Assembly (NCBI GenBank): GCA_002787255.1
Contig: PCWD01000056.1
Coordinates: forward strand, 1-38,243
DNA: 38,243 nucleotides
Reading direction: 5' to 3'
Source of the DNA: Parcubacteria group bacterium CG11_big_fil_rev_8_21_14_0_20_39_14
GTDB lineage: Bacteria > Patescibacteriota > Minisyncoccia > Minisyncoccales > GCA-002787255
The notes beneath the pieces were generated by a model. It was not told the DNA's origin, made no database searches, and saw nothing but the letters and a program-made list of their open reading frames with translations. Positions 6,860 through 38,243 of the stretch are shown piece after piece. The stretch's first letter is position 1, and the number at the start of each line of letters is the position of its first letter. A program made the translations under genes and the position numbers.

Positions 6860-8338
6860 CTAAAGATTTAGAGTTTGTTCAAAGAGTTTGGCGAAGTCAA
6901 AAATTCTTTCTTCTTTAAACCAGGGCCCGATAACCTGAAGACCGACTGGCAACCCGCCAGCCTTGCCGCAAGAAACAGAAACTGCCGGAAGTCCGGCCAA
7001 GTTAATCGGAACGGTAAAAACATCGGACAGGTACATTGAAAGAGGGTCTTTGATTTTTTCGCCGAGTCTAAAAGCGGTAGTTGGACAGGTCGGAGTTAAA
7101 ATCAAATCTATCTTTTTGAAAGATTCCTCAAAATCTTTTTTTATAAGAGACCGAACTTTTTGAGCGCGTAAGTAGTAAGCCTCATAATAACCGGCTGACA
7201 AAGCATAAGTTCCCAGCATAATTCTTCTTTTTGGCTCGTCTCCAAATCCCTCCTGACGAGATTTTAAATAAACATCCAATAAATTATGCGCATTTTTTGA
7301 AAAAGCAGAATATCCAAACTTTATTCCGTCGTACCGGGCTAAATTAGCGCTAACCTCCGATGACATAATTATGTAATAACAAGCTATAGCGTATTCTGTG
7401 TGGGGCAAACTTATTTCCTCAATTTTTGCCCCCAATTCTCTTGCCTTGTCAATGGCTTTTTTTACCACATTTTCCACTTTTGAGTCAATACCCTTTACAA
7501 AATACTCCCTTGGAACCCCTATGCGTAGATTTTGGATTTTGCCTGCCCCGTACCGCGCCAAAGGCTCTGGTGCGGGGGATTTTGGATTTTGGATTTTGGA
7601 TTCGACAGAAGTCGAATCCATTTGGTCTTTACCCTTTATTACATTAAAAACAGTTCTGGCATCATCTACAGTCTTGGTGATTGGTCCTATCTGGTCAAGA
7701 CTGGAGGCCATAGCAATTAATCCGAAGCGAGAAACTGCTCCGTAGGTAGGCTTAAATCCAACCACCCCGCAGAATGAAGCGGGCTGGCGAATTGAGCCGC
7801 CGGTATCCGAGCCCAAAGCATAAACAGTAAAGGACGCAGCTACTGCTGCTGCCGAACCGGAGGAAGAACCGCCCGGAACCCGGGATTCATTATGGGGATT
7901 TTTGGTCGGGAAAAAACCCGAGTTTTCTCCGGAAGAACCCATAGCAAATTCATCCATATTGGTCTTTCCAAGAATTACTGCGCCGGCTTTTTTCAATCTT
8001 TCCACAACACAGGCGTCATAAACAGCGGTGTAATTTTCTAAAATTTTTGAGCCGGCAGTGCATCGCTCTCCTTCCACCAAAATATTATCTTTCACAGCCA
8101 TCGGGATTCCGGCAAGCGGGCTCAAATCTTCGCCATTTTCAATTTTTTCATCAATCCTTTTGGCTGTATTTAAAGCAATTTCCGGGGAAAGATTAATAAA
8201 TGCCCCTAATTTTTTGTCCTCTTTTTCAATTTTTTCCAAAAAAACCCGGGTTAATTCCAGAGAAGAAAATTTCTTTTTCTTTAAGCCCTCATAAGTTTCT
8301 TTGATGGTAAGTTTATGAAGCTCCACTTTAAAAATCAA
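6860..8338 (-). CDS. gatA: Glutamyl/aspartyl-tRNA amidotransferase subunit A
   Basis: 492 aa. Amidase signature GGSSSGSAAAVA. Motifs KDN, DSTS and IGVPREYF present. Confidence 0.93.
   Translation of the reverse strand: MIFKVELHKLTIKETYEGLKKKKFSSLELTRVFLEKIEKEDKKLGAFINLSPEIALNTAKRIDEKIENGEDLSPLAGIPMAVKDNILVEGERCTAGSKILENYTAVYDACVVERLKKAGAVILGKTNMDEFAMGSSGENSGFFPTKNPHNESRVPGGSSSGSAAAVAASFTVYALGSDTGGSIRQPASFCGVVGFKPTYGAVSRFGLIAMASSLDQIGPITKTVDDARTVFNVIKGKDQMDSTSVESKIQNPKSPAPEPLARYGAGKIQNLRIGVPREYFVKGIDSKVENVVKKAIDKARELGAKIEEISLPHTEYAIACYYIIMSSEVSANLARYDGIKFGYSAFSKNAHNLLDVYLKSRQEGFGDEPKRRIMLGTYALSAGYYEAYYLRAQKVRSLIKKDFEESFKKIDLILTPTCPTTAFRLGEKIKDPLSMYLSDVFTVPINLAGLPAVSVSCGKAGGLPVGLQVIGPWFKEERIFDFAKLFEQTLNL
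7528..7620. repeat. In-frame repeat insertion in gatA, related to the intergenic CCCCG...TACGGGGCAGGCAAA element
   Basis: Minus-sense sequence is aaaatccaaaatccaaaatcccccgcaccagagcctttggcgcggtacggggcaggcaaaatccaaaatc. It shares tacggggcaggcaaa plus flanking heptamer words with 24857-24899 and 27313-27356. Confidence 0.7.
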
Positions 8339-12523: not shown

Positions 12524-12907
12524 TTAATAACTTATCTGAACACTTCGATTGGTGCCTTTATAAGTGCCTGTTGATTTAATCTCAACCGGCGGAGCGGTTT
12601 TCTTGGTGCAAACTTTATAACTTGCTCCATTGGAAAGCTCGGTAGTGGGATAGCAATCAACAGTTTTTTCCGCGGCGCAGCCAGCGCCGGCGCAACAGCA
12701 GTTTGTCGGGTTAAGCGACTCTTTGTTTAAGCCATACATAAATCTCTCTATGCCGGTGTCAGCTGCTCCGTAGGCAAGAACCGAATTGGCAATTTCCTGA
12801 GAAAGCTTTATTTCCCTGACAAGCAAAGTGGCGATTCCCAAAGCCAAAGCTATAAGACCGGTTAATATTGAAAGAGTTAAAATTAAAGCAATACCCTTAC
12901 TCTTCAT
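12524..12907 (-). CDS. PilX/GspK-like minor pilin
   Basis: N-terminus MKSKGIALILTLSILTGLIALALG resembles the PilX_N/GspK hydrophobic segment. The gene lies directly after the three prepilin genes. Confidence 0.5.
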   Translation of the reverse strand: MKSKGIALILTLSILTGLIALALGIATLLVREIKLSQEIANSVLAYGAADTGIERFMYGLNKESLNPTNCCCAGAGCAAEKTVDCYPTTELSNGASYKVCTKKTAPPVEIKSTGTYKGTNRSVQISY

Positions 12908-12940: not shown

Positions 12941-13080
12941 CTAATTTGATATTTGATATTTGATTTTAGCGACCCCGCCCTTTCTATAATTTCCAAAAAG
13001 TTTTGAAATTTTTATCTGTATTTATCAATTATTTAAGTTATTAACCTTTGTGGAAACTTTAGAAAAGGCGGGGGAGCGCT
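12941..13080. mobile_element. MITE-like element, copy 1
   Basis: Own TIRs are ccccgccctttcta (12973-12986) and tagaaaaggcgggg (13060-13073). Its reverse complement is near-identical over about 130 bp to 20745-20886. Confidence 0.75.
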
Positions 13081-13619
13081 TACGGTAGGTCAAGATTTCT
13101 TTGGGAAACTGTTGTCTGAAAATTGAGCTCAACTTGATACATAGAACCAACGCTGTCCAGACTTTTTACTTTTAAAACCGTAGTTACCCTGGGTTGGGTA
13201 TTGTCTGCCGTGCCAACGCCCGAAACATCAAAGTAAAGCTTCTCAACCTTTACATTGCTTGAACTTATATAATCAGCCCCCTTGGTGGAAGAGTCTTCTT
13301 TAACTCTATTATTCTCAAGAGTGTAAATTATCGTTCCCTTGATTGCATGGTTTTTTACATTTAGGGAAAGGAGTTGGACGCCGTTGGAAGTAACAATTTC
13401 GCTCATTCTTAGGGCCTTGGCAACTGTTTCCATAACATATCTTCCATTGTCTAAAACTTTTTGAGTTTCCAAACTTCTCCGCTGGGCCTTGAGCGCCGCT
13501 GAAAAAAGACCGGAAGCAGCTGCCACGGTTAACCCAAACAATGCCACTGATACCAATAATTCAACGAGAGTAAAACCTTTGTTTTTTATTGTTCTATTGT
13601 TAAATTGTTCTATTGTCAT
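13080..13619 (-). CDS. Prepilin-type minor pilin, PilW/GspJ-like
   Basis: MTIEQFNNRTIKNKG|FTLVELLVSVALFGL: class III signal with G/F cleavage site and Glu at +5. Confidence 0.75.
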   Translation of the reverse strand: MTIEQFNNRTIKNKGFTLVELLVSVALFGLTVAAASGLFSAALKAQRRSLETQKVLDNGRYVMETVAKALRMSEIVTSNGVQLLSLNVKNHAIKGTIIYTLENNRVKEDSSTKGADYISSSNVKVEKLYFDVSGVGTADNTQPRVTTVLKVKSLDSVGSMYQVELNFQTTVSQRNLDLP

Positions 13620-13680
13620 ATTGTTAAACTGTTGTATTGAAAAAAGTAAAGCAATTTGTCAATTTAGCAATTTAGCAATT
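13575..13680 (-). promoter_or_regulatory. Conserved pilin upstream-plus-leader block, copy 1
   Basis: Minus sense: aattgctaaattgctaaattgacaaattgctttacttttttcaatacaacagtttaacaatATGACAATAGAACAATTTAACAATAGAACAATAAA. Confidence 0.6.
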
Positions 13681-14216
13681 TACTTCCAGTCATATAAATG
13701 CTCGGTCATTAGAATTTCTTTTGAAGTTCCCCGGCTAGTCCAATAAACTCGGGCTTCAACCAACATTTTTTTATATTGACCGGCCTCTGGAAATTCAAGA
13801 CACTGCACAGTAAGCTTTCTTTTGAAAGTTGTATCATTTCCGCTTGTATAATTATAATAGCCATTGCTGTCTAATTTTAAATAACTATCTGCGTAAGCTT
13901 CGGTAGAGGTGCTGTTGTAGGCTACTTGTTTATTTAAAGAACTTCCGTTACAATCCGAAATAATATTATCATTCCAATTTCCCGTTCCAACAAGCCAGTT
14001 GGTATCTCTTATATTTCTTATCACCTCAATTCCTTCCTGGGCAAGATTAACGGCAATTAATCTGTCTTTTGATATTTCGGATGTTCTTAAAACCTGATTG
14101 GCCAGGGTCATACAGCCGACAATTCCGACTGTCAGCACAAAAATAGCAACCAACGCCTCAATAATGGTAAAACCGTTGTCCTTTATTGTTCTATTGTTAT
14201 ATTGTTCTATTGTCAT
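13680..14216 (-). CDS. Prepilin-type minor pilin, PilV/GspI-like
   Basis: MTIEQYNNRTIKDNG|FTIIEALVAIFVLTVGIVG. Confidence 0.75.
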   Translation of the reverse strand: MTIEQYNNRTIKDNGFTIIEALVAIFVLTVGIVGCMTLANQVLRTSEISKDRLIAVNLAQEGIEVIRNIRDTNWLVGTGNWNDNIISDCNGSSLNKQVAYNSTSTEAYADSYLKLDSNGYYNYTSGNDTTFKRKLTVQCLEFPEAGQYKKMLVEARVYWTSRGTSKEILMTEHLYDWK

Positions 14217-14280
14217 ATTGAGAATAAGGAATGTTTATCACTTTAATTTAACAATTTAGCCATTTAACAATTTAGCAATT
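14172..14280 (-). promoter_or_regulatory. Conserved pilin upstream-plus-leader block, copy 2
   Basis: The same aattgctaaattg words and a near-identical ATGACAATAGAACAATATAACAATAGAACAATAAA leader. Confidence 0.6.
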
Positions 14281-14867
14281 TATTGAATGTCAATGTTTCC
14301 TTTGCTGTTAATTGTTAATTGTTTTGTTGTGGATTCATCAGTAGTGAGAGACAAGGTGATTGTGCCGCTTGTCCCGGAAGAAAAATTAGTGGTGGGGTCG
14401 GGAGGAACAAAAACAACCGAAAAGGAATAAACGGGAATAACCGTTTTAACTTTTACTCCGCTTTCTACGGAAATAGTCTCAATTTTAACATCAACGCCAG
14501 TGCCGCCATAAGCATTGTTGCCGTCACAATCGGCAAATAAAATATAGGAAGCATTTGAAGCATCGGAATCGTTGGCGCAGAAGTCGGCGCCGGGCCCGCC
14601 GCTGCTAAAGCAGATTCCATAACCGTCAATAGCCGCTGACTCGGGACAGGTATATCCCGGAGAAGACAGGGCCATATTTGAAGCTCTTCTTATCTCTTGA
14701 GAAACTCTTTGGGCCGTCCTTGTCAATGCCCAATTTTTGTTTCCGCCTCTAAAATAAACCAGGGTGGCTCCCGAGATAACTGTGATAATGGCAACAGAAA
14801 CCAAAAGCTCAACTAAAGAAAATCCTCTATGCTTTATTGTTCTATTGTTATATTGTTCTATTGTCAT
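14280..14867 (-). CDS. Prepilin-type minor pilin, GspH/FimT-like
   Basis: MTIEQYNNRTIKHRG|FSLVELLVSVAIITVISG. Confidence 0.75.
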   Translation of the reverse strand: MTIEQYNNRTIKHRGFSLVELLVSVAIITVISGATLVYFRGGNKNWALTRTAQRVSQEIRRASNMALSSPGYTCPESAAIDGYGICFSSGGPGADFCANDSDASNASYILFADCDGNNAYGGTGVDVKIETISVESGVKVKTVIPVYSFSVVFVPPDPTTNFSSGTSGTITLSLTTDESTTKQLTINSKGNIDIQ

Positions 14868-14920
14868 ATTGTTAAAATGTTGTATTGAAAGAAGTAAAGC
14901 AATTTAGCAATTTAGCAATT
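14823..14920 (-). promoter_or_regulatory. Conserved pilin upstream-plus-leader block, copy 3
   Basis: Minus sense: aaattgctaaattgctaaattgctttacttctttcaatacaacattttaacaatATGACAATAGAACAATATAACAATAGAACAATAAA. Confidence 0.6.
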
Positions 14921-15775
14921 TCAAATTAGAAAACCGAGATACCAATTTATTAACAAATCTCCCCAGAATAATGCAACAAAGGTTCCGGCTACTAAAAATG
15001 GTCCAAAGGGCACTTCGCTCTTAAGGCTCTTTTTGCCAAAAGCGAGCAGTCCCATACCCATTATACCCCCCAATAAAAAACCAAAAAAGAGGGCTGTTAA
15101 AATATTCGGCCAACCCAAAATTAACCCTAAAAGAAATGCCAATTTTACATCTCCCCAACCCATCCAGCGCTCCCGGGACATCAAAACGATAGCTAAAAAA
15201 AATGTTGATGCTAAAATCGCTGATAAAAATGGGTTTAATAGAGTTTTGAAATCCGAAATCCGAAATCCGAAATCCGAAACAAATTCTAAATTTAAAATTC
15301 TGAAAACCTGATAAAAAAACGTAATAATAATTGCTGGAAAAATAATTCTGTCGGGAATAATATAGTGTTTTAAATCTACAACAAAAATTATTATAAGAAA
15401 ACAGGCAATAAGCAAAAAATAACAAATAGGAAATGGGTTTTGAACCCCGCACCAGAACAAGTTCGATGCTGGGCAGGAATTTAAAATTGAAAATTCATTG
15501 AAAATTAGGAGAAATAGCGACCCGGTCGCTATTTCGACTAAGGGATATTGCCAGGAAATTTTTTGATGACAAGAACGGCATTTTCCCTGAAGCAAAATAA
15601 AACTAAAAACTGGCATGAGGTCATACCAGGCAATTACTTTTTTGCAATGAGGACAATAAGACCGACCAGAAATTCTTTCTCCTTTTGGCAAACGGCAGAT
15701 TACAACATTAAGAAAACTGCCGACACAAAGACCAAGAATGAAAATAATTAAAAACACCGGTTTTATCGGCGCCAA
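14921..15775 (-). CDS. pilD: Prepilin peptidase (A24 family)
   Basis: N-terminal Cys pairs CPHC...CRSC. Catalytic Asp motifs DLKHYIIPD and GWGDVKL. Start codon uncertain (TTG at 15775). Confidence 0.9.
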   Translation of the reverse strand: MAPIKPVFLIIFILGLCVGSFLNVVICRLPKGERISGRSYCPHCKKVIAWYDLMPVFSFILLQGKCRSCHQKISWQYPLVEIATGSLFLLIFNEFSILNSCPASNLFWCGVQNPFPICYFLLIACFLIIIFVVDLKHYIIPDRIIFPAIIITFFYQVFRILNLEFVSDFGFRISDFKTLLNPFLSAILASTFFLAIVLMSRERWMGWGDVKLAFLLGLILGWPNILTALFFGFLLGGIMGMGLLAFGKKSLKSEVPFGPFLVAGTFVALFWGDLLINWYLGFLI

Positions 15776-15817
15776 TCAGCGTTGCTATCGGCGTAATGTC
15801 AGCATAAATACTTAGTA

Positions 15818-15856
15818 ACGCTGAAGAACGCTGATATCTACGCTGAACTACGCTGA
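15818..15856. repeat. Helically phased ACGCTGA motif array (4 copies)
   Basis: acgctga starts at 15818, 15828, 15840 and 15850. An inverted counterpart lies at 21779-21818. Confidence 0.65.
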
Positions 15857-15879
15857 AAATCTTTATCAAAAAAATAGTA

Positions 15880-17097
15880 TTAAAATACCGTGCCGGCCAT
15901 CTGATAAATGGGCATTATAATCCCAACAACAATAAATCCCACGGCAGCCCCAAGCACTAAAATCATTAGGGGCTCAACAAGGCTGACCAAATTATCGGTC
16001 ATTCTGGTTACTTCTTTTTTATAAAATTCGGCTGAGTTTTTTAAAACTGCCGGCAATTTACCGGTTTTTTCACCGATTAAAATCATTTGAGTAATTAAAG
16101 GGGGTATTTCTTTTTCCATTTTAAATATAGAGCTCATAAATTCTCCCCGCCTTATTCCCGCCTCGGCTTTAAGAATTATGTCTCTATAAGTTTCGTTTCC
16201 GACGACATCTGCCGCTACCTCCATTGATTTGGAAATTGGCAAGCCTCCCGTGATTAGGGTGCTTAAATTTTCCGAAAAACGGGCAAGGGAGATTTTTTTA
16301 AAAAGTTCTCCAAAAACCGGCACTTTTAAAATAAATTTGTCCCAGATTTTTTTGCCTTTGGCCGTAGCTTTCCAATATAGAAAAAAAACAATGCCCCCGG
16401 CCAAAAATATAAATAATATCCAGCCCCAGCTTCTTAAAAACATGGTAAAGGCCATAATTATTCGGGTGACCGTTGGCAGACCCTGACCCGATTCTTCCAA
16501 AACTGAAGTTAAAGCCGGAATTACAAAAAGAAGCATTATGGTCATTACAATAATCAGGGCGCAAAAAATAAAAGCCGGGTAATACATTGACCCTTTAACT
16601 TTGCTCATTATATCGTATTCGCTTTCATAGTGGTCGGCAAGGTAAGACAGCGATTCGGAAAGTTTTCCGGAAAGTTCTCCGGCTCGAATCATGCTTACAT
16701 AAAAACTGGAAAAAATTTCAGGGTATTTTGAAAGAGCTTTGGAAAAAGCCGTCCCGGACTCAACATTGTCAGAGATTTTAAAAATCTTTTCCCGAAAACG
16801 AGAATTACCTACCTGGTTGCCCATTGTTCTTAAAGACTCAACCAAAGGAACTTCTGAGACAAAAAGGATGGCAAGCTGACGAGAAAAAATGGAAACATCC
16901 CGTAAACTAACCTTTTTGGTAATTAATGGAATTTCTAATTTTTTAAAGAAAGAAGGAGCTTCCTCAATTTCTCTTAAACTAGTTACTATAAGATTGTGTC
17001 TTTGTAAAATATCAATAGCCGCTTCCTGGCTGGAAACCTCAACAATGCCTGACTGAACTGTTCCCTTTGGGGTTCTGGCTTGATATTCAAACTTCAT
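15880..17097 (-). CDS. pilC: Type IV pilus platform protein PilC (GspF family)
   Basis: 405 aa with two GspF-like repeats and three TM segments. Located between pilB and pilD. Confidence 0.9.
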   Translation of the reverse strand: MKFEYQARTPKGTVQSGIVEVSSQEAAIDILQRHNLIVTSLREIEEAPSFFKKLEIPLITKKVSLRDVSIFSRQLAILFVSEVPLVESLRTMGNQVGNSRFREKIFKISDNVESGTAFSKALSKYPEIFSSFYVSMIRAGELSGKLSESLSYLADHYESEYDIMSKVKGSMYYPAFIFCALIIVMTIMLLFVIPALTSVLEESGQGLPTVTRIIMAFTMFLRSWGWILFIFLAGGIVFFLYWKATAKGKKIWDKFILKVPVFGELFKKISLARFSENLSTLITGGLPISKSMEVAADVVGNETYRDIILKAEAGIRRGEFMSSIFKMEKEIPPLITQMILIGEKTGKLPAVLKNSAEFYKKEVTRMTDNLVSLVEPLMILVLGAAVGFIVVGIIMPIYQMAGTVF

Positions 17098-17176
17098 ACC
17101 TTTAAAAACTTAAAAAATTAAAAATCTAAAAAAATAAAATAATCGGTTTTTATATCTTTAAATTTTTATGTTTTTA
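17098..17176 (-). repeat. AT-rich palindromic 5-prime leader element, copy upstream of pilC
   Basis: cctttaaaaacttaaaaaattaaaaatctaaaaaaataaaataatcggtttttatatctttaaatttttatgttttta. About 95 percent identical by eye to 20355-20433. Confidence 0.75.
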
Positions 17177-17285
17177 TCCCGCGCCTTTTCCAGCGAGCGT
17201 TTCCGATAATACGGAATTGGTCCCGCACCTTTTTAGGACAACTTCGTTATTTTGCGCAAAGCGCAGTCCACAAAAGGTGCGGGAT

Positions 17286-19031
17286 TTATTTTTCTATTTC
17301 GGTTGCCTGAACTACTTCCCCAATGCTTATAAGCCCCTGCAGAACTTTAATTATTCCGTCCTGGAGCATTGTGGTCATTTCTTGTCTTTGACCTTCTCTG
17401 ATTATTTCGCTTTCAATCGGTTTTTCAATTATTATCTTCTCAAGCTGAGGAGACATTGTTAAAGTTTCAAAAATAGCAACTCGCCCTCTGGTGCCCTGAC
17501 TTAAACATTTATCGCAACCTTTTGGCTGATAGACATATATCGGGGAAGAAACCTTAAGCTCTTTTTGAATAGCTTGAGGAAGTTTGGAAACCTCGTTTAA
17601 GATTAATTTTTCCATCTCCGGATTAGCTTTAATTTTTTCTTTGCAGCGGGGGCAAAGTCTTCTAATAAGCCGTTGAGCAACGCACAAAATTAAAGAAGAG
17701 GGAATCAGATAGGGAGCAACCTTTAAATCAATGAGGCGGTGAATAATTCCAACAGCATTATTGGTATGAATGGTTGATAAAACAATGTGTCCGGTTAAAG
17801 CGGCGTGAGTTGCCAGAGAGGCAGTTTCCTCATCGCGAATTTCACCAACCATAATAATATTGGGGTCCTGCCTCAAAACATTGCGAAGCCCTGTTGCAAA
17901 AGAATAGCCGATTTCCGGTCTAATCTGGGATTGATTTACTCCGCTAATATAATATTCAACCGGGTCTTCCAGGGTAACAATATTAACTCCTTCTTTGTTC
18001 AGGATATTTAAGATACCGTAAAGCGTGGTGGTTTTACCAGAACCCGTTGGTCCGGACAACAAAATCATTCCAAAAGGTTTTTTTATCCCTTGCTCCACTT
18101 TCTTTAAATTGTTAAACTGCAGCCCGAGATCGGGAAGTCCGCGCAAACCGGTGGAAGGATCAAGCACTCTCATTGCTACTTTTTCTCCAAGCGAAGTTGG
18201 AAAAGTGGAAATTCTAAAATCAATATCCTTTAGGCCAACCTTAGTATGAAATCTTCCATCCTGGGGAACTCTTGTTTCGTCAATCCTCAAATTTGAAAGA
18301 ATTTTAATTCTGGTAACAACGGCTGGAGCAATATTTAATGGCAAAGACAAAGCTGCATGCAAAACTCCGTCAACCCGAAACCGAACTCTTAAATTATCCT
18401 TGGTTGGCTCCACATGAATATCAGAAGCCCTGCCCTCAACAGCATACTTTATAATAACCGCCACCATTTTGATAATGGGGGCTTCTTTAGCAATTTTTTC
18501 GGCTTCCCCGGGAGCCTCAATCGGCAGTTCAATTCCTGGTCCCCTTTCGATAAAAGCTTCGGTTTCCAGTTCCTTTAAGGTTCTTGTTACTTCCTCGCCA
18601 AAAGTTTTATAGCGCTTTAAAATTTGCTCATAAGTTGTCGGCGTGATAATAAAAAATTCAGGAGCAAAACCCTCCTTGGCGGCAATAAACTTTAGAGCTT
18701 CTTTGGCCTCAAAATCACCGGGGTTTAGAATTCCTATCTCAAGTATCCCTCCCCTTTTCCCAAGGGGAACAAATTTATAAAACTTAGCCGCTTCTTCACT
18801 GATTTGTTTAAGAACATCTTCGGGTATTTCTGTTCCTTCGCTGATTTTTCTGAAAGGAACATTAAAAATTTTTGATTTTGCTTCAGCAACCTCCTCCTCG
18901 CTGGCTAATTTTTCTTCATAAATAAGAGCTTCAATTGATTTTTCAGTTTTTCCGGATTCCTCCTTTAAATAATCGGCATCTTGCTTTTTTAAGATGCCTA
19001 ATGATAGTAAAGTTTCAATTAGAGTAGGCAT
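17286..19031 (-). CDS. pilB: Type IV pilus assembly ATPase PilB (GspE family)
   Basis: 581 aa. N-terminal GSPII-like domain, Walker A GPTGSGKTT, tetracysteine CPRC...CDKC. Confidence 0.93.
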   Translation of the reverse strand: MPTLIETLLSLGILKKQDADYLKEESGKTEKSIEALIYEEKLASEEEVAEAKSKIFNVPFRKISEGTEIPEDVLKQISEEAAKFYKFVPLGKRGGILEIGILNPGDFEAKEALKFIAAKEGFAPEFFIITPTTYEQILKRYKTFGEEVTRTLKELETEAFIERGPGIELPIEAPGEAEKIAKEAPIIKMVAVIIKYAVEGRASDIHVEPTKDNLRVRFRVDGVLHAALSLPLNIAPAVVTRIKILSNLRIDETRVPQDGRFHTKVGLKDIDFRISTFPTSLGEKVAMRVLDPSTGLRGLPDLGLQFNNLKKVEQGIKKPFGMILLSGPTGSGKTTTLYGILNILNKEGVNIVTLEDPVEYYISGVNQSQIRPEIGYSFATGLRNVLRQDPNIIMVGEIRDEETASLATHAALTGHIVLSTIHTNNAVGIIHRLIDLKVAPYLIPSSLILCVAQRLIRRLCPRCKEKIKANPEMEKLILNEVSKLPQAIQKELKVSSPIYVYQPKGCDKCLSQGTRGRVAIFETLTMSPQLEKIIIEKPIESEIIREGQRQEMTTMLQDGIIKVLQGLISIGEVVQATEIEK

Positions 19032-19077
19032 GTTAGAAATTGTTAGCGAGCCAAAGGCGAGCGTTACAATTTCTTAC

Positions 19078-19143
19078 ACCCCGTTAGATAGCCCCAATTA
19101 GAGATGGCGACTACGCCTATCTAATGGGGCGTCTAATGGGGTA
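19078..19143. repeat. ccccgttaga/tctaatgggg palindromic element, locus 2, upstream of pilB
   Basis: ccccgttagatagccccaattagagatggcgactacgcctatctaatggggcgtctaatgggg. Aligns with 21644-21706. Confidence 0.7.
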
Positions 19144-19274
19144 AAGGACTTTGTAACACCCCGCTCTCTCTGTGCTCTTGGAATTTTTATTGAAAGTTAT
19201 TATAAGAGAATATAGCTTTCCAAATAATTTAATTTTCAATCCGAGGGCTTAGAGGGCGGGGTTAATAAATTCCT

Positions 19275-20354
19275 TTAGTATTGTTTTTTCATTCTTGACC
19301 TTAATTCTGACGGATTTAAAGAATAAATCAAAGCGTTTTCCATTGAAATTTCTCTTCTTTTTACAAGTTCGACCAAAGAACGATTGAGAGCTATCATTCC
19401 GAGCTCCGTATTTGTTTCAATAACCAAGTTTAATTCATGGGTTTTGCCCTCTCTAATCAGGGATGATACAGCCGGGCAACTAATCATTATTTCGCTTGCC
19501 GGAATTCTTCCACCCTCAATTCGAGGAATAAGCCTTTGGGAAATTACTCCCAAAAGAGTAGCCGCAAGCTGAGACCTTATCTGATTCTGTTGACTGGCCG
19601 GAAAACTATCAATAATTCTGTCAACAGTTTGAGAAGCGTTATTGGTGTGCAAAGAAGCAAAAACCAAGTGTCCGGTCTCGGCTGCCGTAATGGCCGCCGA
19701 CATCGTTTCATAGTCTCTCATCTCTCCTATCATAATTACATCGGGATCCTGACGGAAAACCGATCTTAGAGCATTGTGAAAATTATAAGTATCCAATATC
19801 ACCTCTCTTTGATTAACAATTGCCCTGTCCTGAATAAAAAGATACTCAATTGGGTCCTCAATTGTTACAATATGGTCGGTTCGGGTATGGTTTATTTCAT
19901 CAATTAAAGCCGCTAAAGTTGTGGATTTTCCGTGACCGGATGGGCCAACCACCAAAACAAAACCCTGATTTGCTTGAGAAAATTCATGACAGATGGGTGG
20001 CAAATTTAACTCTTCAATTGTTTTAATTCTGGCGGGAATAAGACGCAAGGCCGCGCTAATAAAACCCCTCTGAAAAAAAACATTAACCCGAAACCTGACT
20101 TTGTCCTTGTGGGAATAAGAAAAATCAATTTCTTTTTCTCTAAGAAACCTTTCTTTCTGTTCTTCTGAAAGCAAAGCAAAAACCAAACCCTCGCAATCCT
20201 TGGGAGTAAGAATTTCTTTCTTTTCAATGGAAACCAGAGCTCCGTCAATTCTCAAAGTTGGCTTTCTGCCTACCCCTAAATGAAGATCTGACGCATTGCC
20301 TTGAGCAACCATGAGTAAAAGCTCATCTAATTCTTGTTGATAATTAATTATCAT
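19275..20354 (-). CDS. pilT: Type IV pilus retraction ATPase PilT
   Basis: 359 aa. Walker A GPSGHGKST. PilT-type size with no N-terminal GSPII domain. Confidence 0.9.
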   Translation of the reverse strand: MIINYQQELDELLLMVAQGNASDLHLGVGRKPTLRIDGALVSIEKKEILTPKDCEGLVFALLSEEQKERFLREKEIDFSYSHKDKVRFRVNVFFQRGFISAALRLIPARIKTIEELNLPPICHEFSQANQGFVLVVGPSGHGKSTTLAALIDEINHTRTDHIVTIEDPIEYLFIQDRAIVNQREVILDTYNFHNALRSVFRQDPDVIMIGEMRDYETMSAAITAAETGHLVFASLHTNNASQTVDRIIDSFPASQQNQIRSQLAATLLGVISQRLIPRIEGGRIPASEIMISCPAVSSLIREGKTHELNLVIETNTELGMIALNRSLVELVKRREISMENALIYSLNPSELRSRMKKQY

Positions 20355-20433
20355 GCCTTTAAAAACTTAAAAAATTAAAAATCTAAAAACATAAAATAAT
20401 CGGTTTTTATATTTTTAGATTTTTATGTTTTTA
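20355..20433 (-). repeat. AT-rich palindromic 5-prime leader element, copy upstream of pilT
   Basis: Abuts the pilT start codon. Differs from 17098-17176 at about 4 positions. Confidence 0.75.
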
Positions 20434-20446
20434 GATTTTTATTACT

Positions 20447-20743
20447 TTAATATGGCACAAAGGGATTTTCTCGACCGCTCTCTTCTACGGTTAGAGAAGA
20501 AATGTCGGGAAAACTTTCCAGGGCCTGGAATCTCTCATCCTTTAAAATTTCCCATTTTATATCAAGTTTTTTTAGTTCTTCGGAAACAACGGGAACTGCC
20601 TCCTGGGGCTTTTCAGAAACCGGCGGCTTCGCCCCCAAAAAAACAAAATAAAAAATGCTTGCCAAAGCAATCAATACAATTACAAAACCAACCCACAAAA
20701 TGAGCTTTTTCCTTCTTCCTTTTTGAACAATTGTTATGGCCAT
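20447..20743 (-). CDS. Single-pass membrane protein, possibly PilP-like
   Basis: 98 aa with an N-terminal TM helix and a C-terminal GRENPFVPY motif. Located between pilO and pilT. Confidence 0.45.
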   Translation of the reverse strand: MAITIVQKGRRKKLILWVGFVIVLIALASIFYFVFLGAKPPVSEKPQEAVPVVSEELKKLDIKWEILKDERFQALESFPDISSLTVEESGRENPFVPY

Positions 20744-20744
20744 A

Positions 20745-20886
20745 AGCTCTCCCCTGCCCTTTCTAAAGTTTCCACAAAGGTTAATAACTCAAATAATTGA
20801 TAAATACAGATAAAAATTTCAAAACTTTTTGGAAATTATAGAAAGGGCGGGGTCGCTAAAATAAAATATCAAATATTAAAAATCAA
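20745..20886. mobile_element. MITE-like element, copy 2, inverted relative to copy 1
   Basis: tcccctgccctttctaaagtttccacaaaggttaataact...ggaaattatagaaagggcggggtcgc. It abuts the start codon of the 98-aa gene and supplies its GGGGAG Shine-Dalgarno. Confidence 0.75.
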
Positions 20887-21082: not shown

Positions 21083-21634
21083 TTATTTCTGAGGAAAGTA
21101 ATAAAGCTTGACTCCTAAAATAATGGGGAGAAGTTGCTCCGCCGTTTTCTCACCCTCTTCTTTGGTACCGGAAGAAAAATTAATACTTTGAACATCTATT
21201 ATTCTTAGATTTTTTTCTAATCTTTTTAAAAATGTTTTTAGCGAAGAATAACTTCCAATAAAATTATTATTAACCGAAACAGCCGCTCCGCCGGGAGAAA
21301 CCGATTCAGATTGTTCTTTGAAGTCAAAATTTTTCATAACCAAACCGCTGTCTGTCGCAAAATTCTGAAACTGAAATAAAATACTTGTTATTTGAGAATT
21401 CGTAGGCAGAGCCAAATTCAGTCTCTCTATCTGGTCTTGCCACAATCCGGACTCCTCCCGAAGCTCTTCAATCCTTTTTATAATTTTTTTCCTTTCGGCA
21501 AGATAAGCCTTTCTTTCCTCGAGTTTTATTTGAGTGTCTTGAGATTTTTCAATAGCCGGGAGAGTTAAAAACTGCAAAATCAAACCAAATGCCAAAAAAA
21601 CTCCAAAAATTGTATAAACTTTTTTCTTATGCAT
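21083..21634 (-). CDS. pilO: Type IV pilus assembly protein PilO-like
   Basis: TM helix plus coiled coil. The ATG at 21634 is preceded by gaaggaac. The 21 extra N-terminal residues of the track ORF are coded by a repeat element. Confidence 0.7.
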   Translation of the reverse strand: MHKKKVYTIFGVFLAFGLILQFLTLPAIEKSQDTQIKLEERKAYLAERKKIIKRIEELREESGLWQDQIERLNLALPTNSQITSILFQFQNFATDSGLVMKNFDFKEQSESVSPGGAAVSVNNNFIGSYSSLKTFLKRLEKNLRIIDVQSINFSSGTKEEGEKTAEQLLPIILGVKLYYFPQK

Positions 21635-21643
21635 GTTCCTTCG

Positions 21644-21706
21644 CCTGTTAGATAGCCCCGTTAGGTGGCGGTTACGCCCATCTAATGGGGCGCTCATCTA
21701 ACGGGG
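21644..21706. repeat. ccccgttaga/tctaacgggg palindromic element, locus 3, upstream of pilO
   Basis: ctgttagatagccccgttaggtggcggttacgcccatctaatggggcgctcatctaacgggg. Confidence 0.7.
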
Positions 21707-21778: not shown

Positions 21779-21818
21779 TCAGCGTAATTTCAGCGTATAG
21801 TTCAGCGTGGTTCAGAAC
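21779..21818. repeat. Phased TCAGCGT motif array, inverse of 15818-15856
   Basis: tcagcgt at 21779, 21790 and 21802, plus a degenerate tcagaac at 21812. Confidence 0.65.
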
Positions 21819-37886: not shown

Positions 37887-38243
37887 TTATTGTCCGTAAT
37901 AATAGTCCTGGTTTGTTGAATAACCTTTACCATCCATACAGGTTACTTCATATACCGGAAAATAGTAAGACCTGGAAGCGACATCCCAGTTTTCATTATC
38001 TCCTGTATCAACATATTTATAAACTATCACCCTTCCCCGCTGGTATTTGTAATTTTGGTATCCATAGGTTCCTTGAGCGCATTTACAGAATTTTTTTGCC
38101 TGGCCTTGATTCCTATAAAGATACTGGTAATCTCCTTTCCAACATTTTTCAGCTGGTGGCGGTATGGGAGTTGGTGTGGGTGTTGGAGTTGGAGTTGGAG
38201 TTGGAGTTGGAGTGGGAGTGGGAGTTGGAGTTGGAGTTGGAGT
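37887..38243 (-). CDS. Partial CDS: (Thr-Pro)n linker plus Cys/Tyr-rich C-terminal domain; N-terminus lies beyond the window
   Basis: Own translation: TPTPTPTPTPTPTPTPTPTPTPTPIPPPAEKCWKGDYQYLYRNQGQAKKFCKCAQGTYGYQNYKYQRG...DYYYGQ*. Stop codon at 37887-37889. Confidence 0.7.
   Translation of the reverse strand, partial: TPTPTPTPTPTPTPTPTPTPTPTPTPIPPPAEKCWKGDYQYLYRNQGQAKKFCKCAQGTYGYQNYKYQRGRVIVYKYVDTGDNENWDVASRSYYFPVYEVTCMDGKGYSTNQDYYYGQ

What the first reader, a model, noticed from the sequence alone, without database searches (positions are those of the whole stretch)
12941..20886. MITE-like ~130-bp elements in inverted orientation bracket the pilin-pilD-pilC-pilB-pilT block
The reverse complement of 12941-13080 matches 20745-20886 almost base for base over about 130 bp.

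- Each copy has its own GC-clamp TIRs (CCCCGCCCTTTCTA ... TAGAAA(A/G)GGCGGGG) and an AT-heptamer tail.
- The pair flanks ~7.7 kb holding three minor pilins, pilD, pilC, pilB, pilT and the 98-aa gene.
- Copy 2 abuts the start codon of the 98-aa gene and provides its GGGGAG ribosome-binding site. Copy 1 abuts the stop of the last prepilin gene.
- A more diverged look-alike, with the same length and the same CCCCGC...GCGGGG clamps, lies at 19158-19262.
- Inverted repeats of this size could mediate inversion of the segment. Alternatively they are independent insertions of a non-autonomous element.

Caveat: other word families in this window also occur in both orientations (for example 15818-15856 versus 21779-21818). 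The bracketing may therefore be coincidental.
Basis: partly seen in the sequence, partly recalled or inferred. Interest (0 to 1): 0.6.

Follow-up and report, generated by a model that had tools for sequence, protein, structure and literature searches.

The report
Mobile hairpin repeats flanking pilus genes
The two inverted 141-base repeats around the pilus genes of this tiny groundwater (CPR) bacterium are real, but they are two separate copies of a small hairpin-shaped jumping element that settles at gene starts and ends, probably moved by a miniature GIY-YIG nuclease, and not an on/off inversion switch.

Summary
Observation confirmed. 12945-13085 and 20740-20880 are inverted copies (141 nt, 95%, no gaps) flanking p98-pilT-pilB-pilC-pilD-3 prepilins.

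Each arm is a 101-nt GC-clamped hairpin ("family A") nested in a short frame, [T-rich heptamers]-TTTTAGCGA|core|GAGCGCTTA. About 14 copies of that frame occur in the genome, holding other hairpins or none.

Evidence that the core is mobile:
- 5 copies here, and at least 14 other sites in a sister species.
- It sits in either orientation within the same frame.
- Both sites are empty in two related species.

A2 ends exactly at the conserved ATG of p98 and supplies its GGGGAG. A1, in the opposite orientation, split a 4-nt gene overlap, and its terminal TTA is now the pilin's TAA stop.

Inversion is not supported:
- About 16 independent assemblies are collinear.
- The 7 A1/A2 differences are unchanged in all of them.
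- No recombinase domain lies within 10 kb.

New lead: the look-alike at 19159-19261 (family B) shares its 15-nt ends with a 247-nt element whose only gene is a 73-aa GIY-YIG nuclease. Those ends and that gene co-occur in 4/4 versus 0/37 genomes. For family A the link is inferred only.

The parts
12945..13085 (+). Copy A1 (composite). T-rich heptamer tail 12945-12963; left frame TTTTAGCGA 12964-12972; 101-nt family-A hairpin core 12973-13073; right frame GAGCGCTTA 13074-13082 followed by CGG. It points towards the 3' end of the convergent last prepilin gene.
   Evidence: DNA fold z = -3.7 and -5.2 on the two strands. The junction is contiguous in 10 independent contigs. In the relative L047 this junction is a 4-nt gene overlap.
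13080..13082 (-). TAA stop codon of the last prepilin, supplied by the terminal TTA of the A1 frame.
   Evidence: The C-terminus ...NLDLP* is identical in window and relative. The relative uses CC-ATGA (TGA overlapping the next ATG), whereas here the inserted block begins TAAGCGCTC. Another orphan frame does the same (G000 C38:6895, stop at 6922-6924).
20740..20880 (-). Copy A2 (composite). Tail 20862-20880; TTTTAGCGA 20853-20861; core 20752-20852; right frame GAGAGCTT 20744-20751; ATG 20741-20743 is the start of the 98-aa ORF. The 3' clamp plus GAG gives GGGGAG 8 nt upstream of the ATG.
   Evidence: The junction is contiguous in 6 contigs. Orthologues in two related species start with the same ATGGC(C/T)ATAAC but have only 26 nt and 86 nt spacers without the element.
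19159..19261 (-). Copy B1: a family-B hairpin (ends CCCCGCCCTCTAAGC ... GAGAGAGCGGGG, right end degenerate), 12 nt after the pilT stop. Nested CCCC(A/G)TTAGA-type hairpins follow, down to the pilB start.
   Evidence: DNA fold z = -2.2. Family-B ends are shared with the GIY-YIG element at G000 C40:11336-11584.
13080..20743 (-). Bracketed gene block: p98 (20447-20743), pilT (19275-20354), pilB (17286-19031), pilC (15880-17097), pilD (14921-15775), prepilins (14280-14867, 13680-14216, 13080-13619).
   Evidence: ORFs, Pfam, orthology to L047.
12524..12907 (-). p127, the gene downstream of A1 (no Pfam match). It is the orthologue of p131 in the relative, where it overlaps the last pilin by 4 nt.
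21083..21697 (-). pilO, the gene upstream of A2. The 339-nt spacer to p98 holds A2 plus other GC hairpins.
17080..17176 (.). AT-rich palindromic repeat upstream of pilC. It is 91% identical to 20337-20433 upstream of pilT. This is a different repeat family in the same operon.
   Evidence: families D2, I6, I7.
20337..20433 (.). Second copy of the AT-rich palindromic repeat, upstream of pilT.
   Evidence: D2.

Best explanation
The two arms are separate copies of one composite, non-coding palindromic repeat. They are not a working pair.

SHOWN
- The 101-nt core (14-nt perfect ends CCCCGCCCTTTCTA / TAGAAAGGGCGGGG, AT-rich interior) is a discrete unit. It occurs 5 times in this 0.98-Mb genome, at 14 or more other sites in a sister species of the same aquifer, and its ends occur in 17 of 400 other genomes of the order.
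- It sits in either orientation inside the same short frame, TTTTA-GCGA|core|(G)AGC-GCTTA. When unoccupied, that frame is a GCGAAGC mini-hairpin.
- The same frame holds four or more other hairpin families.
- Both window sites are unoccupied in two related species.
- A2 ends exactly at the conserved ATG of p98 and gives it its only Shine-Dalgarno-like sequence.
- A1, in the opposite orientation, split an ATGA gene overlap, and its last three bases became the pilin's stop codon.
- Six of nine family A/B cores lie 8-9 nt before a start codon.
- Family B has the same architecture, uses the same frame, and has a copy inside this operon. It shares both 15-nt ends, including a conserved A/T asymmetry, with a 247-nt element whose only gene is a 73-aa GIY-YIG nuclease with its stop codon inside the right end. 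B ends and that gene co-occur across genomes.

INFERRED
- The hairpins are gene-less derivatives that a small GIY-YIG (Ssn-like) nuclease copies in trans. It would recognise the hairpin ends on single-stranded DNA and place them in the loops of other hairpins.
- Because the ends are symmetric, either strand can be used, which would explain both orientations at one site and the absence of a target duplication.
- Copies survive only where they leave both neighbouring genes intact. The element's own ends permit this: GGGG-GAG-N5-ATG in one direction, TTA (read as TAA) in the other. That is why copies pile up at gene boundaries.
- Two boundaries of one operon were hit, so the pilus block looks bracketed.
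For: - Repeat and copies.
- Core flipped within an unchanged frame: A4/A5 versus A1/A2, B2 versus B3.
- Frame with other hairpins and two empty frames: C32:19893 TTTTAGCGAAGCGCTTGTG and C48:10212.
- A2's tail is 47/48 identical to the tail of a frame on C9 that holds a different hairpin, but only 26/28 identical to A1's tail, so cores and frames assort independently.
- Position relative to genes.
- Downstream genes are diverse (PilN, S14, FtsH, acetate kinase, MFS).
- Empty orthologous sites and exact junctions.
- Sister-species copies at other loci, in both orientations, where our genome has no core.
- Copies cluster by genome (within-genome identity 84-97%, between genomes 84%).
- Family-A end in 17/400 genomes against 3 hits for the reversed control.
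- No inversion: 13-kb collinearity above 99.9% in all same-species contigs; the A1 junction in 10 contigs and the A2 junction in 6, with the 7 diagnostic differences constant; no recombinase domain among called genes within 10 kb.
- GIY-YIG link: the C40 element (PF01541 46.4 bits against a cut-off of 22.6); the same ends around orthologous genes in G034 and G035; inverted repeats of 12 nt or more around about 12 of 29 GIY-YIG ORFs against 0 of 880 controls; co-occurrence 4/4 versus 0/37, Fisher p = 1e-5.
- Published precedent for single-domain GIY-YIG ssDNA nucleases flanked by dispersed hairpin repeats: PMC11893778.
Against: - No movement was observed and no enzyme was tested.
- No target-site duplication. 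Only a 2-nt GA on both sides of framed copies, and nothing at A3.
- No GIY-YIG gene carries family-A ends, neither in this 91%-complete genome nor within 1.5 kb of 30 family-A ends in 17 other genomes. The link to the finding's own element therefore rests on analogy with family B.
- Beyond the 15-nt ends, family-B hairpins share no sequence with the GIY-YIG element.
- A1 and A2 are each other's closest relatives (97% in the core) and lie 7.7 kb apart. A local inverted copy or gene conversion is as likely as two separate arrivals.
- Assemblies show only the majority arrangement, and several contigs break inside the cores, so a rare inverted subpopulation cannot be excluded.
- A co-opted role for the hairpin as leader or 3' structure is untested.
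Confidence: 0.7

Rival explanations
1. Invertible segment. Homologous or site-specific recombination between the two 141-nt inverted arms flips the 7.65-kb pilus block as a phase- or antigenic-variation switch.
For: The arms are inverted, 95% identical and share a 71-nt exact run, so they are long enough for RecA-type recombination. Several metagenome contigs break exactly within the arms; L041 runs from core A2 to core A1.
Against: - All contigs that cross either junction (10 for A1, 6 for A2, from many samples and years) show the reference arrangement.
- The 7 diagnostic A1/A2 differences are never exchanged.
- No recombinase or invertase domain lies within 10 kb.
- Contig breaks are what a 71-nt exact repeat with 5 genomic copies produces in short-read assembly.
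- After inversion the operon would still sit behind an identical module, so no obvious on/off effect follows (inference).
- The same elements precede S14, FtsH, AckA and others.
Confidence: 0.04
2. Co-opted RNA structures. A2 acts as a 5' leader hairpin (mRNA stabiliser or translational gate that partly sequesters the SD), and A1 as a 3' hairpin (stabiliser or terminator) of the same polycistronic mRNA. The two ends might pair with each other over about 110-140 nt.
For: - On the operon strand A2 lies between any upstream promoter and the p98 ATG, and its 3' clamp overlaps the GGGGAG.
- A1 follows the last pilin's stop.
- Both fold far better than shuffles (z from -3.7 to -5.9).
- Six of nine cores sit 8-9 nt before a start codon.
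- If both are transcribed, the 5' and 3' copies are complementary by construction.
Against: - Cores occur in both orientations relative to the downstream gene, so no loop sequence is kept on the RNA.
- No compensatory changes and no strand bias in wobble versus mismatch (13/16 versus 15/14).
- No U-run after the hairpin on either strand, so it is not a canonical terminator.
- No Rfam match.
- Orthologous genes in relatives function without it.
- Transcription could not be examined.
Confidence: 0.15
3. REPIN-like elements moved by the genome's single Y1 (HUH) RAYT-like transposase, rather than by a GIY-YIG nuclease.
For: - One Y1_Tnp gene at G000 C41:3239-3892. Pfam 37.6 bits against a cut-off of 23; best NCBIfam hit is REP-associated tyrosine transposase; HUH and Y motifs are present.
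- A degenerate family-B copy lies 140 nt downstream.
- Homologues occur at 1-3 copies in 22 of 41 same-order genomes, a RAYT-like pattern.
- Insertion without target duplication at hairpins fits HUH chemistry (established knowledge of IS200/IS605 and RAYTs; PMC3116915).
Against: - The gene is flanked on both sides by GGACWGTCC palindromes (about 7 loci genome-wide), not by family A/B ends.
- The NCBIfam score of 44.7 is below the 80-bit cut-off.
- The arms of the element are not REP-type palindromes and carry no GTAG/CGTC tag.
- Family-B ends track the GIY-YIG gene, not Y1, across genomes. G035 and G034 have B-type GIY genes; the closest Y1 orthologues are in G006 and G008, and G008 has no B ends.
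Confidence: 0.1
4. A1 is a local inverted duplication of A2 (or the reverse), made by template switching or gene conversion within the locus, rather than an independent transposition.
For: A1 and A2 are the closest pair in the family (97% core identity against 84-94% to the other copies). They carry the core in the same orientation relative to the frame and lie only 7.7 kb apart.
Against: - Outside the core the similarity is only what any two frames share: tail 26/28, then none, while A2's tail is 47/48 identical to a frame on another contig.
- The A1 insertion also contains 30 nt or more of unrelated T-rich array.
- This variant changes the history, not the nature, of the elements.
Confidence: 0.15

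Closest known systems
Ssn family: single-domain GIY-YIG site-specific ssDNA nucleases with their flanking and dispersed hairpin repeats (SRM/NTS), Neisseria and many other bacteria (PMC11893778)
   Same: A roughly 70-100-aa stand-alone GIY-YIG protein whose gene is bounded by hairpin-forming inverted repeats that are also scattered through the genome. The authors themselves compare it with RAYT/REP. In our data the repeat ends and the gene co-occur across genomes.
   Different: - Here the two ends are the two arms of one hairpin with the gene in its loop and the stop codon inside the right arm, rather than a separate hairpin on each side.
- The dispersed copies are about 98-101-nt gene-less hairpins with AT-rich interiors.
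- They lie at start or stop codons and nest in other hairpins.
- Sequence membership of our protein in the Ssn clade was not tested, and no biochemistry was done.
REP / BIME / REPIN elements and RAYT transposases (PMC3116915, PMC3337134, PMC3733652)
   Same: Short extragenic palindromes in many copies and several co-resident families forming mosaics in spacers. There is no target duplication, and a single-copy HUH gene is present in the genome.
   Different: The arms are not REP doublets, there is no GTAG/CGTC tag, and the Y1 gene is flanked by a different palindrome. The gene that shares ends with the hairpins is a GIY-YIG nuclease.
Bacterial MITEs, especially Correia repeat-enclosed elements of Neisseria (PMC2649163, PMC2229807, PMC10969869)
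   Same: About 100-150 nt with terminal inverted repeats, found in both orientations, next to genes and co-transcribed with them, and able to supply expression signals at their ends.
   Different: No TA (or other) target duplication, no DDE transposase partner with matching ends, insertion into a specific hairpin frame, and ends that provide an SD or a stop codon rather than promoter boxes.
GIY-YIG-encoding non-intron insertion sequences in rRNA genes of CPR bacteria (PMC11270868)
   Same: The same phylum-level group, with small GIY-YIG ORFs inserted at the tips or bases of stem-loops and not behaving like homing introns.
   Different: Those were described only inside rRNA genes. That paper does not mention inverted-repeat ends, gene-less derivatives or gene-boundary insertion (no occurrence of 'inverted repeat', 'hairpin' or 'palindrom').
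Invertible DNA switches (E. coli fimS, Salmonella hin; from my own knowledge)
   Same: Inverted repeats flank a segment linked to surface-appendage genes.
   Different: Those switches have short (9-26 bp) repeats, a dedicated recombinase next door, a promoter inside the invertible segment, and both orientations in any population. None of these features was found here.

Membership tests
MITE | Small (under about 300 bp), no coding capacity | tested here: met
   The core is 95-101 nt with an AT-rich interior and no ORF.
MITE | Terminal inverted repeats | tested here: met
   14-nt perfect and about 28-nt imperfect terminal repeats. The left arm is invariant in 17 of 19 copies from two species.
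MITE | Target-site duplication flanking each copy | tested here: not met
   No direct repeat at A3. Framed copies show only GA|core|GA, and the empty frame reads GCGAAGC, which does not fit a simple duplication.
MITE | Multiple copies at unrelated loci, with insertion polymorphism between relatives | tested here: met
   5 copies in G000. The sites are empty in L047 and L106. Fourteen sister-species copies lie at loci that lack the core in G000.
MITE | Autonomous partner with the same ends encoding a transposase | tested here: inconclusive
   - Family A: none found.
- Family B: a 247-nt partner with identical 15-nt ends, but its gene is a GIY-YIG nuclease, not a known transposase.
- DDE_Tnp_1, DDE_3, IS110 and TnpB are absent. 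Two rve hits lack matching ends.
REPIN / RAYT system | Element is two inverted REP palindromes carrying a conserved GTAG (or CGTC) tag | tested here: not met
   The arms CCCCGCCCTTTCTATAATTTCC are not themselves palindromic and carry no tag. Definition taken from PMC3116915 and PMC3733652.
REPIN / RAYT system | Single-copy RAYT gene flanked by the same repeats | tested here: not met
   One Y1 gene is present, but it is flanked by GGACWGTCC palindromes. NCBIfam RAYT score is 44.7 against a cut-off of 80.
Ssn nuclease / SRM repeat system | Stand-alone single-domain GIY-YIG protein | tested here: met
   73 aa, PF01541 46.4 bits against a cut-off of 22.6, no other domain.
Ssn nuclease / SRM repeat system | Gene bounded on both sides by hairpin-forming repeats that are also dispersed in the genome | tested here: met
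   - Family-B ends bound the gene in G000, G034 and G035 and occur as gene-less hairpins in G000, G006 and G034.
- The C9 paralogue is bounded by the ends of the CCCCGTTAGA family, which has 166 arm hits.
- The arrangement differs from Ssn: one hairpin with the gene in its loop.
Ssn nuclease / SRM repeat system | Site-specific cleavage of single-stranded DNA next to the hairpin | not testable with these tools
   Needs purified protein and oligonucleotides.
Ssn nuclease / SRM repeat system | Sequence membership in the Ssn clade of the GIY-YIG superfamily | not tested
   None of the libraries I searched (Pfam, NCBIfam) named an Ssn family for these proteins. NCBIfam gave only weak sub-threshold hits to group I intron endonuclease and UvrC.
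Invertible DNA switch | Both orientations present in the population | tested here: not met
   16 junction-spanning contigs from many samples all show one orientation. The read-level test was unavailable, so a rare minority is not excluded.
Invertible DNA switch | Dedicated recombinase encoded nearby | tested here: not met
   No recombinase or invertase family is listed among the precomputed Pfam families of the genes called within 10 kb on either side.

The most novel reading that the evidence does not exclude
The family A and B hairpins are the gene-less offspring of what may be the smallest self-contained mobile DNA known: a roughly 250-nt unit consisting of one 73-aa GIY-YIG nuclease gene wrapped in a hairpin. 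The nuclease would insert hairpins into the loops of other hairpins at gene boundaries. Its ends hand the neighbouring genes a ribosome-binding site or a stop codon, so the elements can pry apart overlapping genes. This would progressively inflate and reshape operons, including this pilus operon, in ultra-small CPR bacteria.
Probability: 0.35. Interest if true: 0.75.

Novelty: new variant of a known kind. Interest (0 to 1): 0.45.

Why it matters
The specific claim, an inversion switch around pilus genes, would have meant phase-variable pili in a CPR bacterium. The evidence says no, which keeps a tempting but wrong annotation out of the record.

What remains is still useful:
- It is a clean, well-bounded example, with empty sites and a sister species for comparison, of how tiny palindromic elements colonise gene boundaries in streamlined genomes without breaking genes. 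The same 9-nt end gives GGAG-N5-ATG in one direction and a TAA stop in the other.
- Genome-level co-occurrence links one such hairpin family to a 73-aa GIY-YIG nuclease.
- If that nuclease is the mover, it extends the recently published Ssn/hairpin-repeat association (PMC11893778) from 'domesticated nuclease with repeats' to an active, minimal mobile element.
- It would explain the repeat-stuffed spacers of many Patescibacteria.
- It would offer very small, sequence-specific ssDNA nucleases for study.

Tried and rejected
1. Heptamer tail as a promoter or UP element. T-rich arrays are 20 sense versus 25 antisense in co-directional spacers, and promoter-like hits equal the shuffled expectation. 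Dropped.
2. Strand-specific (RNA or one-strand ssDNA) selection on the stem. Wobble/mismatch counts are 13/16 versus 15/14 on the two strands and there are no compensatory pairs. Dropped.
3. Known RNA family. Rfam finds only the 5 tRNAs.
4. Canonical terminator. No U-run follows the hairpin on either strand.
5. Contig ends inside the cores as evidence for inversion. Rejected, because a 71-nt exact shared run plus 5 copies explains them, and every contig that crosses shows the reference order.
6. Pattern scan of the species-representative genome collection for one arm. It gave 28 single, unpaired hits in unrelated phyla, of the order chance would give (about 9 expected by my rough estimate), plus a cluster in Nostoc; I did not inspect them.
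7. TnpB, DDE_Tnp_1, DDE_3 and IS110 are absent. Two rve ORFs on C56 have no matching ends.
8. A GIY-YIG gene with family-A ends was searched for in G000, in sister-species contigs and in 30 loci from 17 genomes. None was found.
10. Literature search for palindromic repeats in CPR genomes found nothing relevant.

Full report
**1. The observation**

The window is one whole contig (C45) of a 0.98-Mb, 71-contig, 38% GC genome, 91% complete. Earlier scan notes call it a groundwater Parcubacteria/CPR organism. An identical locus is in NCBI GCA_002774495.1.

The repeat finder reports arms 12945-13085 and 20740-20880: 141 nt, 95% complementary. BLAST gives 134/141 with no gaps.

All genes between the arms lie on the minus strand:
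- a 98-aa ORF (p98);
- PilT, PilB, PilC;
- the A24 prepilin peptidase (PilD);
- three N_methyl prepilins.

pilM, pilN and pilO lie upstream. A 127-aa gene (p127) lies downstream.

**2. Anatomy**

Each arm is composite.

- **The core.** It is a 101-nt hairpin with ends CCCCGCCCTTTCTA...TAGAAAGGGCGGGG. As single-stranded DNA it folds with z between -3.7 and -5.9.
- **Copy number.** The genome holds five copies, which I call family A: the two here, plus C49:4408-4508, C7:23629-23727 and C35:5490-5584.
- **The frame.** In four of the five copies the core sits inside a conserved frame: a run of T-rich heptamers, then TTTTAGCGA, the core, then GAGCGCTTA.
- **Orientation.** In C7 and C35 the frame has the same orientation as in A1/A2, but the whole core is flipped, including the positions at which its two arms differ.
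- **Family B.** Its copies on C27 and C29 likewise occupy the same frame in opposite orientations.
- **Other occupants.** The same frame occurs about 14 times in the genome. It holds at least three further kinds of small hairpin, and twice holds nothing: C32 reads TTTTAGCGAAGCGCTTGTG, and C48 is also empty.
- **The empty frame.** It contains GCGAAGC, the known very stable DNA mini-hairpin (PMC13037366). That motif occurs 171 times in the genome, against about 47 expected.
- **Independent assortment.** A2's tail is 47/48 identical to the tail of the C9 frame, which holds a different hairpin. It is only 26/28 identical to A1's tail.

So cores and frames assort independently. The '141-nt repeat' is a shared core plus the generic similarity of two frames.

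**3. Relation to genes**

Six of the nine family A/B cores end 8-9 nt before a start codon. The clamp plus GAG forms GGGGGAG. This holds even for A3, which has no frame.

The downstream genes are diverse: p98, a second PilN, ribosomal protein S14, FtsH and two unknowns. Other framed hairpins precede acetate kinase and an MFS transporter. So there is no tie to pili.

Three frames point the other way, into the 3' end of a convergent gene. In A1 and in C38 the frame's last three bases, TTA, are that gene's TAA stop. In C56 the gene reads through the module.

**4. Are the sites insertions?**

PilT homologues led to two kinds of comparison material: many independent assemblies of the same species, and a relative with 85% PilT identity (L047/L048). 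A metagenome pattern scan then revealed a sister species in the same aquifer (for example L106).

| Junction | Relative(s) | Window |
|---|---|---|
| pilO to p98 | spacers of 26 nt (L047) and 86 nt (L106); the ORF starts ATGGC(C/T)ATAAC | 339 nt, ending with A2 directly against the same ATG |
| last pilin to p127 | in L047 the two genes overlap by 4 nt (CC-ATGA) | pilin keeps the identical C-terminus ...NLDLP but stops at the TAA that begins a 172-nt insert (TAAGCGCTC-core-...), and p127 keeps its own ATG |

Both sites are therefore derived insertions that left both neighbouring genes intact.

The sister species carries at least 14 family-A cores (about 85% identical, both orientations) at other loci, including directly before and after its pilB. 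At the sites I inspected (those of L068, L073, L104 and L082/L105) our genome has no core.

Copies are somewhat more alike within each genome than between the two. The 14-nt family-A end occurs in 17 of 400 other genomes of the order, against 3 hits for a reversed control. It often appears as hairpins of about 97 nt with unrelated interiors. The core is absent from 40 same-order genomes. A scan of the species-representative collection gave only unpaired single-arm hits in unrelated phyla, which I did not inspect.

**5. Inversion**

- All same-species contigs are collinear with the window at above 99.9%.
- The A1 junction is crossed by 10 contigs and the A2 junction by 6. They come from many samples and always show the reference arrangement.
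- The seven differences between A1 and A2 (12948, 12962, 13035, 13066, 13070, 13077, 13083) are the same in every contig that holds both copies, so the arms have not exchanged sequence.
- Several contigs do stop inside the cores, and one spans exactly core to core. A 71-nt exact run present in several copies explains that.
- No recombinase domain is listed among genes within 10 kb.
A rare inverted minority therefore remains formally possible.

**6. What moves them?**

| Candidate | Result |
|---|---|
| Y1/HUH RAYT-like gene (C41) | One copy, but flanked by a different palindrome (GGACWGTCC). Scores below NCBIfam's RAYT cut-off |
| TnpB, DDE_Tnp_1, DDE_3, IS110 | No hit to any of these families |
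| rve (two ORFs on C56) | Present, but lack matching ends |

Listing every occurrence of the family ends revealed C40:11336-11584. This is a 247-nt element whose two 15-nt ends are those of family B, including the conserved TATGC/TAAGC asymmetry.

- Its interior is one ORF: a 73-aa GIY-YIG nuclease (PF01541, 46 bits).
- The ORF starts 3 nt after the left end, and its TAG stop lies inside the right end.
- A paralogue on C9, with one in-frame TGA, is wrapped in the same way by the ends of the genome's commonest hairpin family, ACCCCGTTAGAAAC/GTTTCTAACGGGGT.

In other genomes of the order, about 12 of 29 small GIY-YIG ORFs are bracketed by exact inverted repeats of 12-21 nt, against 0 of 880 control placements. 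Two of these, from different families, use the family-B ends.

Among 41 genomes, two or more family-B ends occur only in the four that also have a B-type GIY-YIG gene or an N-terminal remnant abutting an end: 4/4 versus 0/37, p = 1e-5.

A published precedent exists. Ssn proteins are single-domain GIY-YIG nucleases that cut single-stranded DNA next to hairpin repeats. Those repeats flank their own gene and are dispersed in the genome (PMC11893778). GIY-YIG ORFs in non-intron insertions at rRNA stem-loops of CPR bacteria are also on record (PMC11270868).

No GIY-YIG gene with family-A ends was found. For the finding's own element the link is therefore an inference. It rests on three things family A shares with family B: architecture, frame and CCCCGCCC clamp.

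**7. Mechanism proposed**

Shown: discrete hairpin units, orientation-free occupation of one specific site, empty orthologous sites, exact preservation of the neighbouring ORFs, and co-occurrence of family-B ends with the GIY-YIG gene.

Inferred:
- The small nuclease recognises the clamp on single-stranded DNA and copies the hairpins into the loops of other hairpins.
- The symmetric ends let either strand be used. That would account for both orientations and for the missing target duplication.
- Purifying selection then keeps only copies at gene boundaries, where the element's ends supply an SD-ATG spacing or a stop codon.

The pilus block looks bracketed because two of its boundaries were hit. 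At least three other repeat families occupy its other spacers.

**8. Comparison and novelty**

The pair itself is ordinary selfish DNA of the MITE/REP kind. It is not a textbook MITE, because it has no target duplication and no transposase partner. It is not a REPIN either, because it has no REP doublets and the RAYT-like gene is flanked by other repeats.

It works most like the Ssn/SRM association. It differs in three ways: the gene sits inside the hairpin, the derivatives are gene-less hairpins of about 100 nt, and insertion is nested and gene-boundary-specific.

My literature searches found no description of such elements in CPR spacers. Earlier notes of this scan describe the same class in other genomes. 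I found the link independently, before reading them, and I treat them only as agreement.

I rate this a new variant of a known kind. Interest is moderate for the element biology and low for the inversion idea.

Noticed in passing
window 17286-20354; L047 7563-10961; L106 5003-7143: Gene order differs from both related species. They have p98-pilB-(response regulator)-pilT-pilC (L047) or p98-pilB (L106). The window has p98-pilT-pilB-pilC with no response regulator. So pilT was relocated and the regulator lost. pilT and pilC now share a 97-nt AT-rich palindromic upstream repeat (17080-17176 / 20337-20433, 91%), which may mark the rearrangement.
   Followed up: partly
L106 4917-5002 (sister species, JGI Ga0066637_10007454): The pilO-p98 spacer is (AATGGCT)x6 running straight into the ORF start ATGGCTATAAC. 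The heptamer word equals the gene's first 7 nt, as if the array grew by 7-nt tandem duplication seeded at the start codon. In L047 the p131 N-terminus is coded by (AATATCC)x4.
   Followed up: no
G000 C40:11336-11584: A 247-nt element made of family-B ends plus a 73-aa GIY-YIG ORF whose TAG stop lies inside the right end. A scaffold gap (N run) lies about 35 nt upstream, so its left context is incomplete.
   Followed up: yes
G000 C9:18196-18484 (minus strand): A GIY-YIG paralogue (94 codons, one in-frame TGA) wrapped by the 14-nt perfect ends ACCCCGTTAGAAAC/GTTTCTAACGGGGT. These belong to the genome's most abundant hairpin family (CCCCGTTAGA, 166 arm hits). The stop TAA lies inside the right end.
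   Followed up: partly
G000 C41:3239-3892 (minus strand): The only Y1/HUH (RAYT-like) gene, 217 aa, with GGACAGTCCTAGGACTGTCC-type palindromes immediately before its start and after its stop. About 7 loci of that palindrome exist genome-wide. Homologues are present at 1-3 copies in 22 of 41 same-order genomes.
   Followed up: partly
window 19032-19158 (minus strand): The pilT-pilB spacer after B1 is a set of nested hairpins: ACCCCATTAGA[CGCCCCATTAGAT[AGGCG..CGCC]ATCTCTAATTGGGGC]TATCTAACGGGGT. After it comes a hairpin, GTAAGAAATTGTAAC...GTTAGAAATTGTTAGC-type, whose 3' arm abuts the pilB ATG with no SD. The same start-abutting hairpin precedes other genes in the sister species (L067, L117).
   Followed up: no
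G000 C56:4103-4190: An 807-codon plus-strand ORF reads through an oppositely oriented frame-plus-hairpin module and stops in its tail, so about 25 C-terminal residues are encoded by the repeat.
   Followed up: no
L162 646-752 (genome G057): In another genome of the order the family-A ends enclose what looks like the reverse complement of a tRNA gene instead of an AT-rich interior.
   Followed up: no
G000 C49:9088-9495: An intact 83-aa GIY-YIG ORF lies directly after a tRNA gene and three CCCCAGAACCATACGGTTCGGGG hairpins. No bracketing inverted repeat was found.
   Followed up: no
window 38151-38243: A hexamer tandem array (GTTGGA/GTGGGA) runs off the contig end inside open reading frames on both strands.
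   Followed up: no
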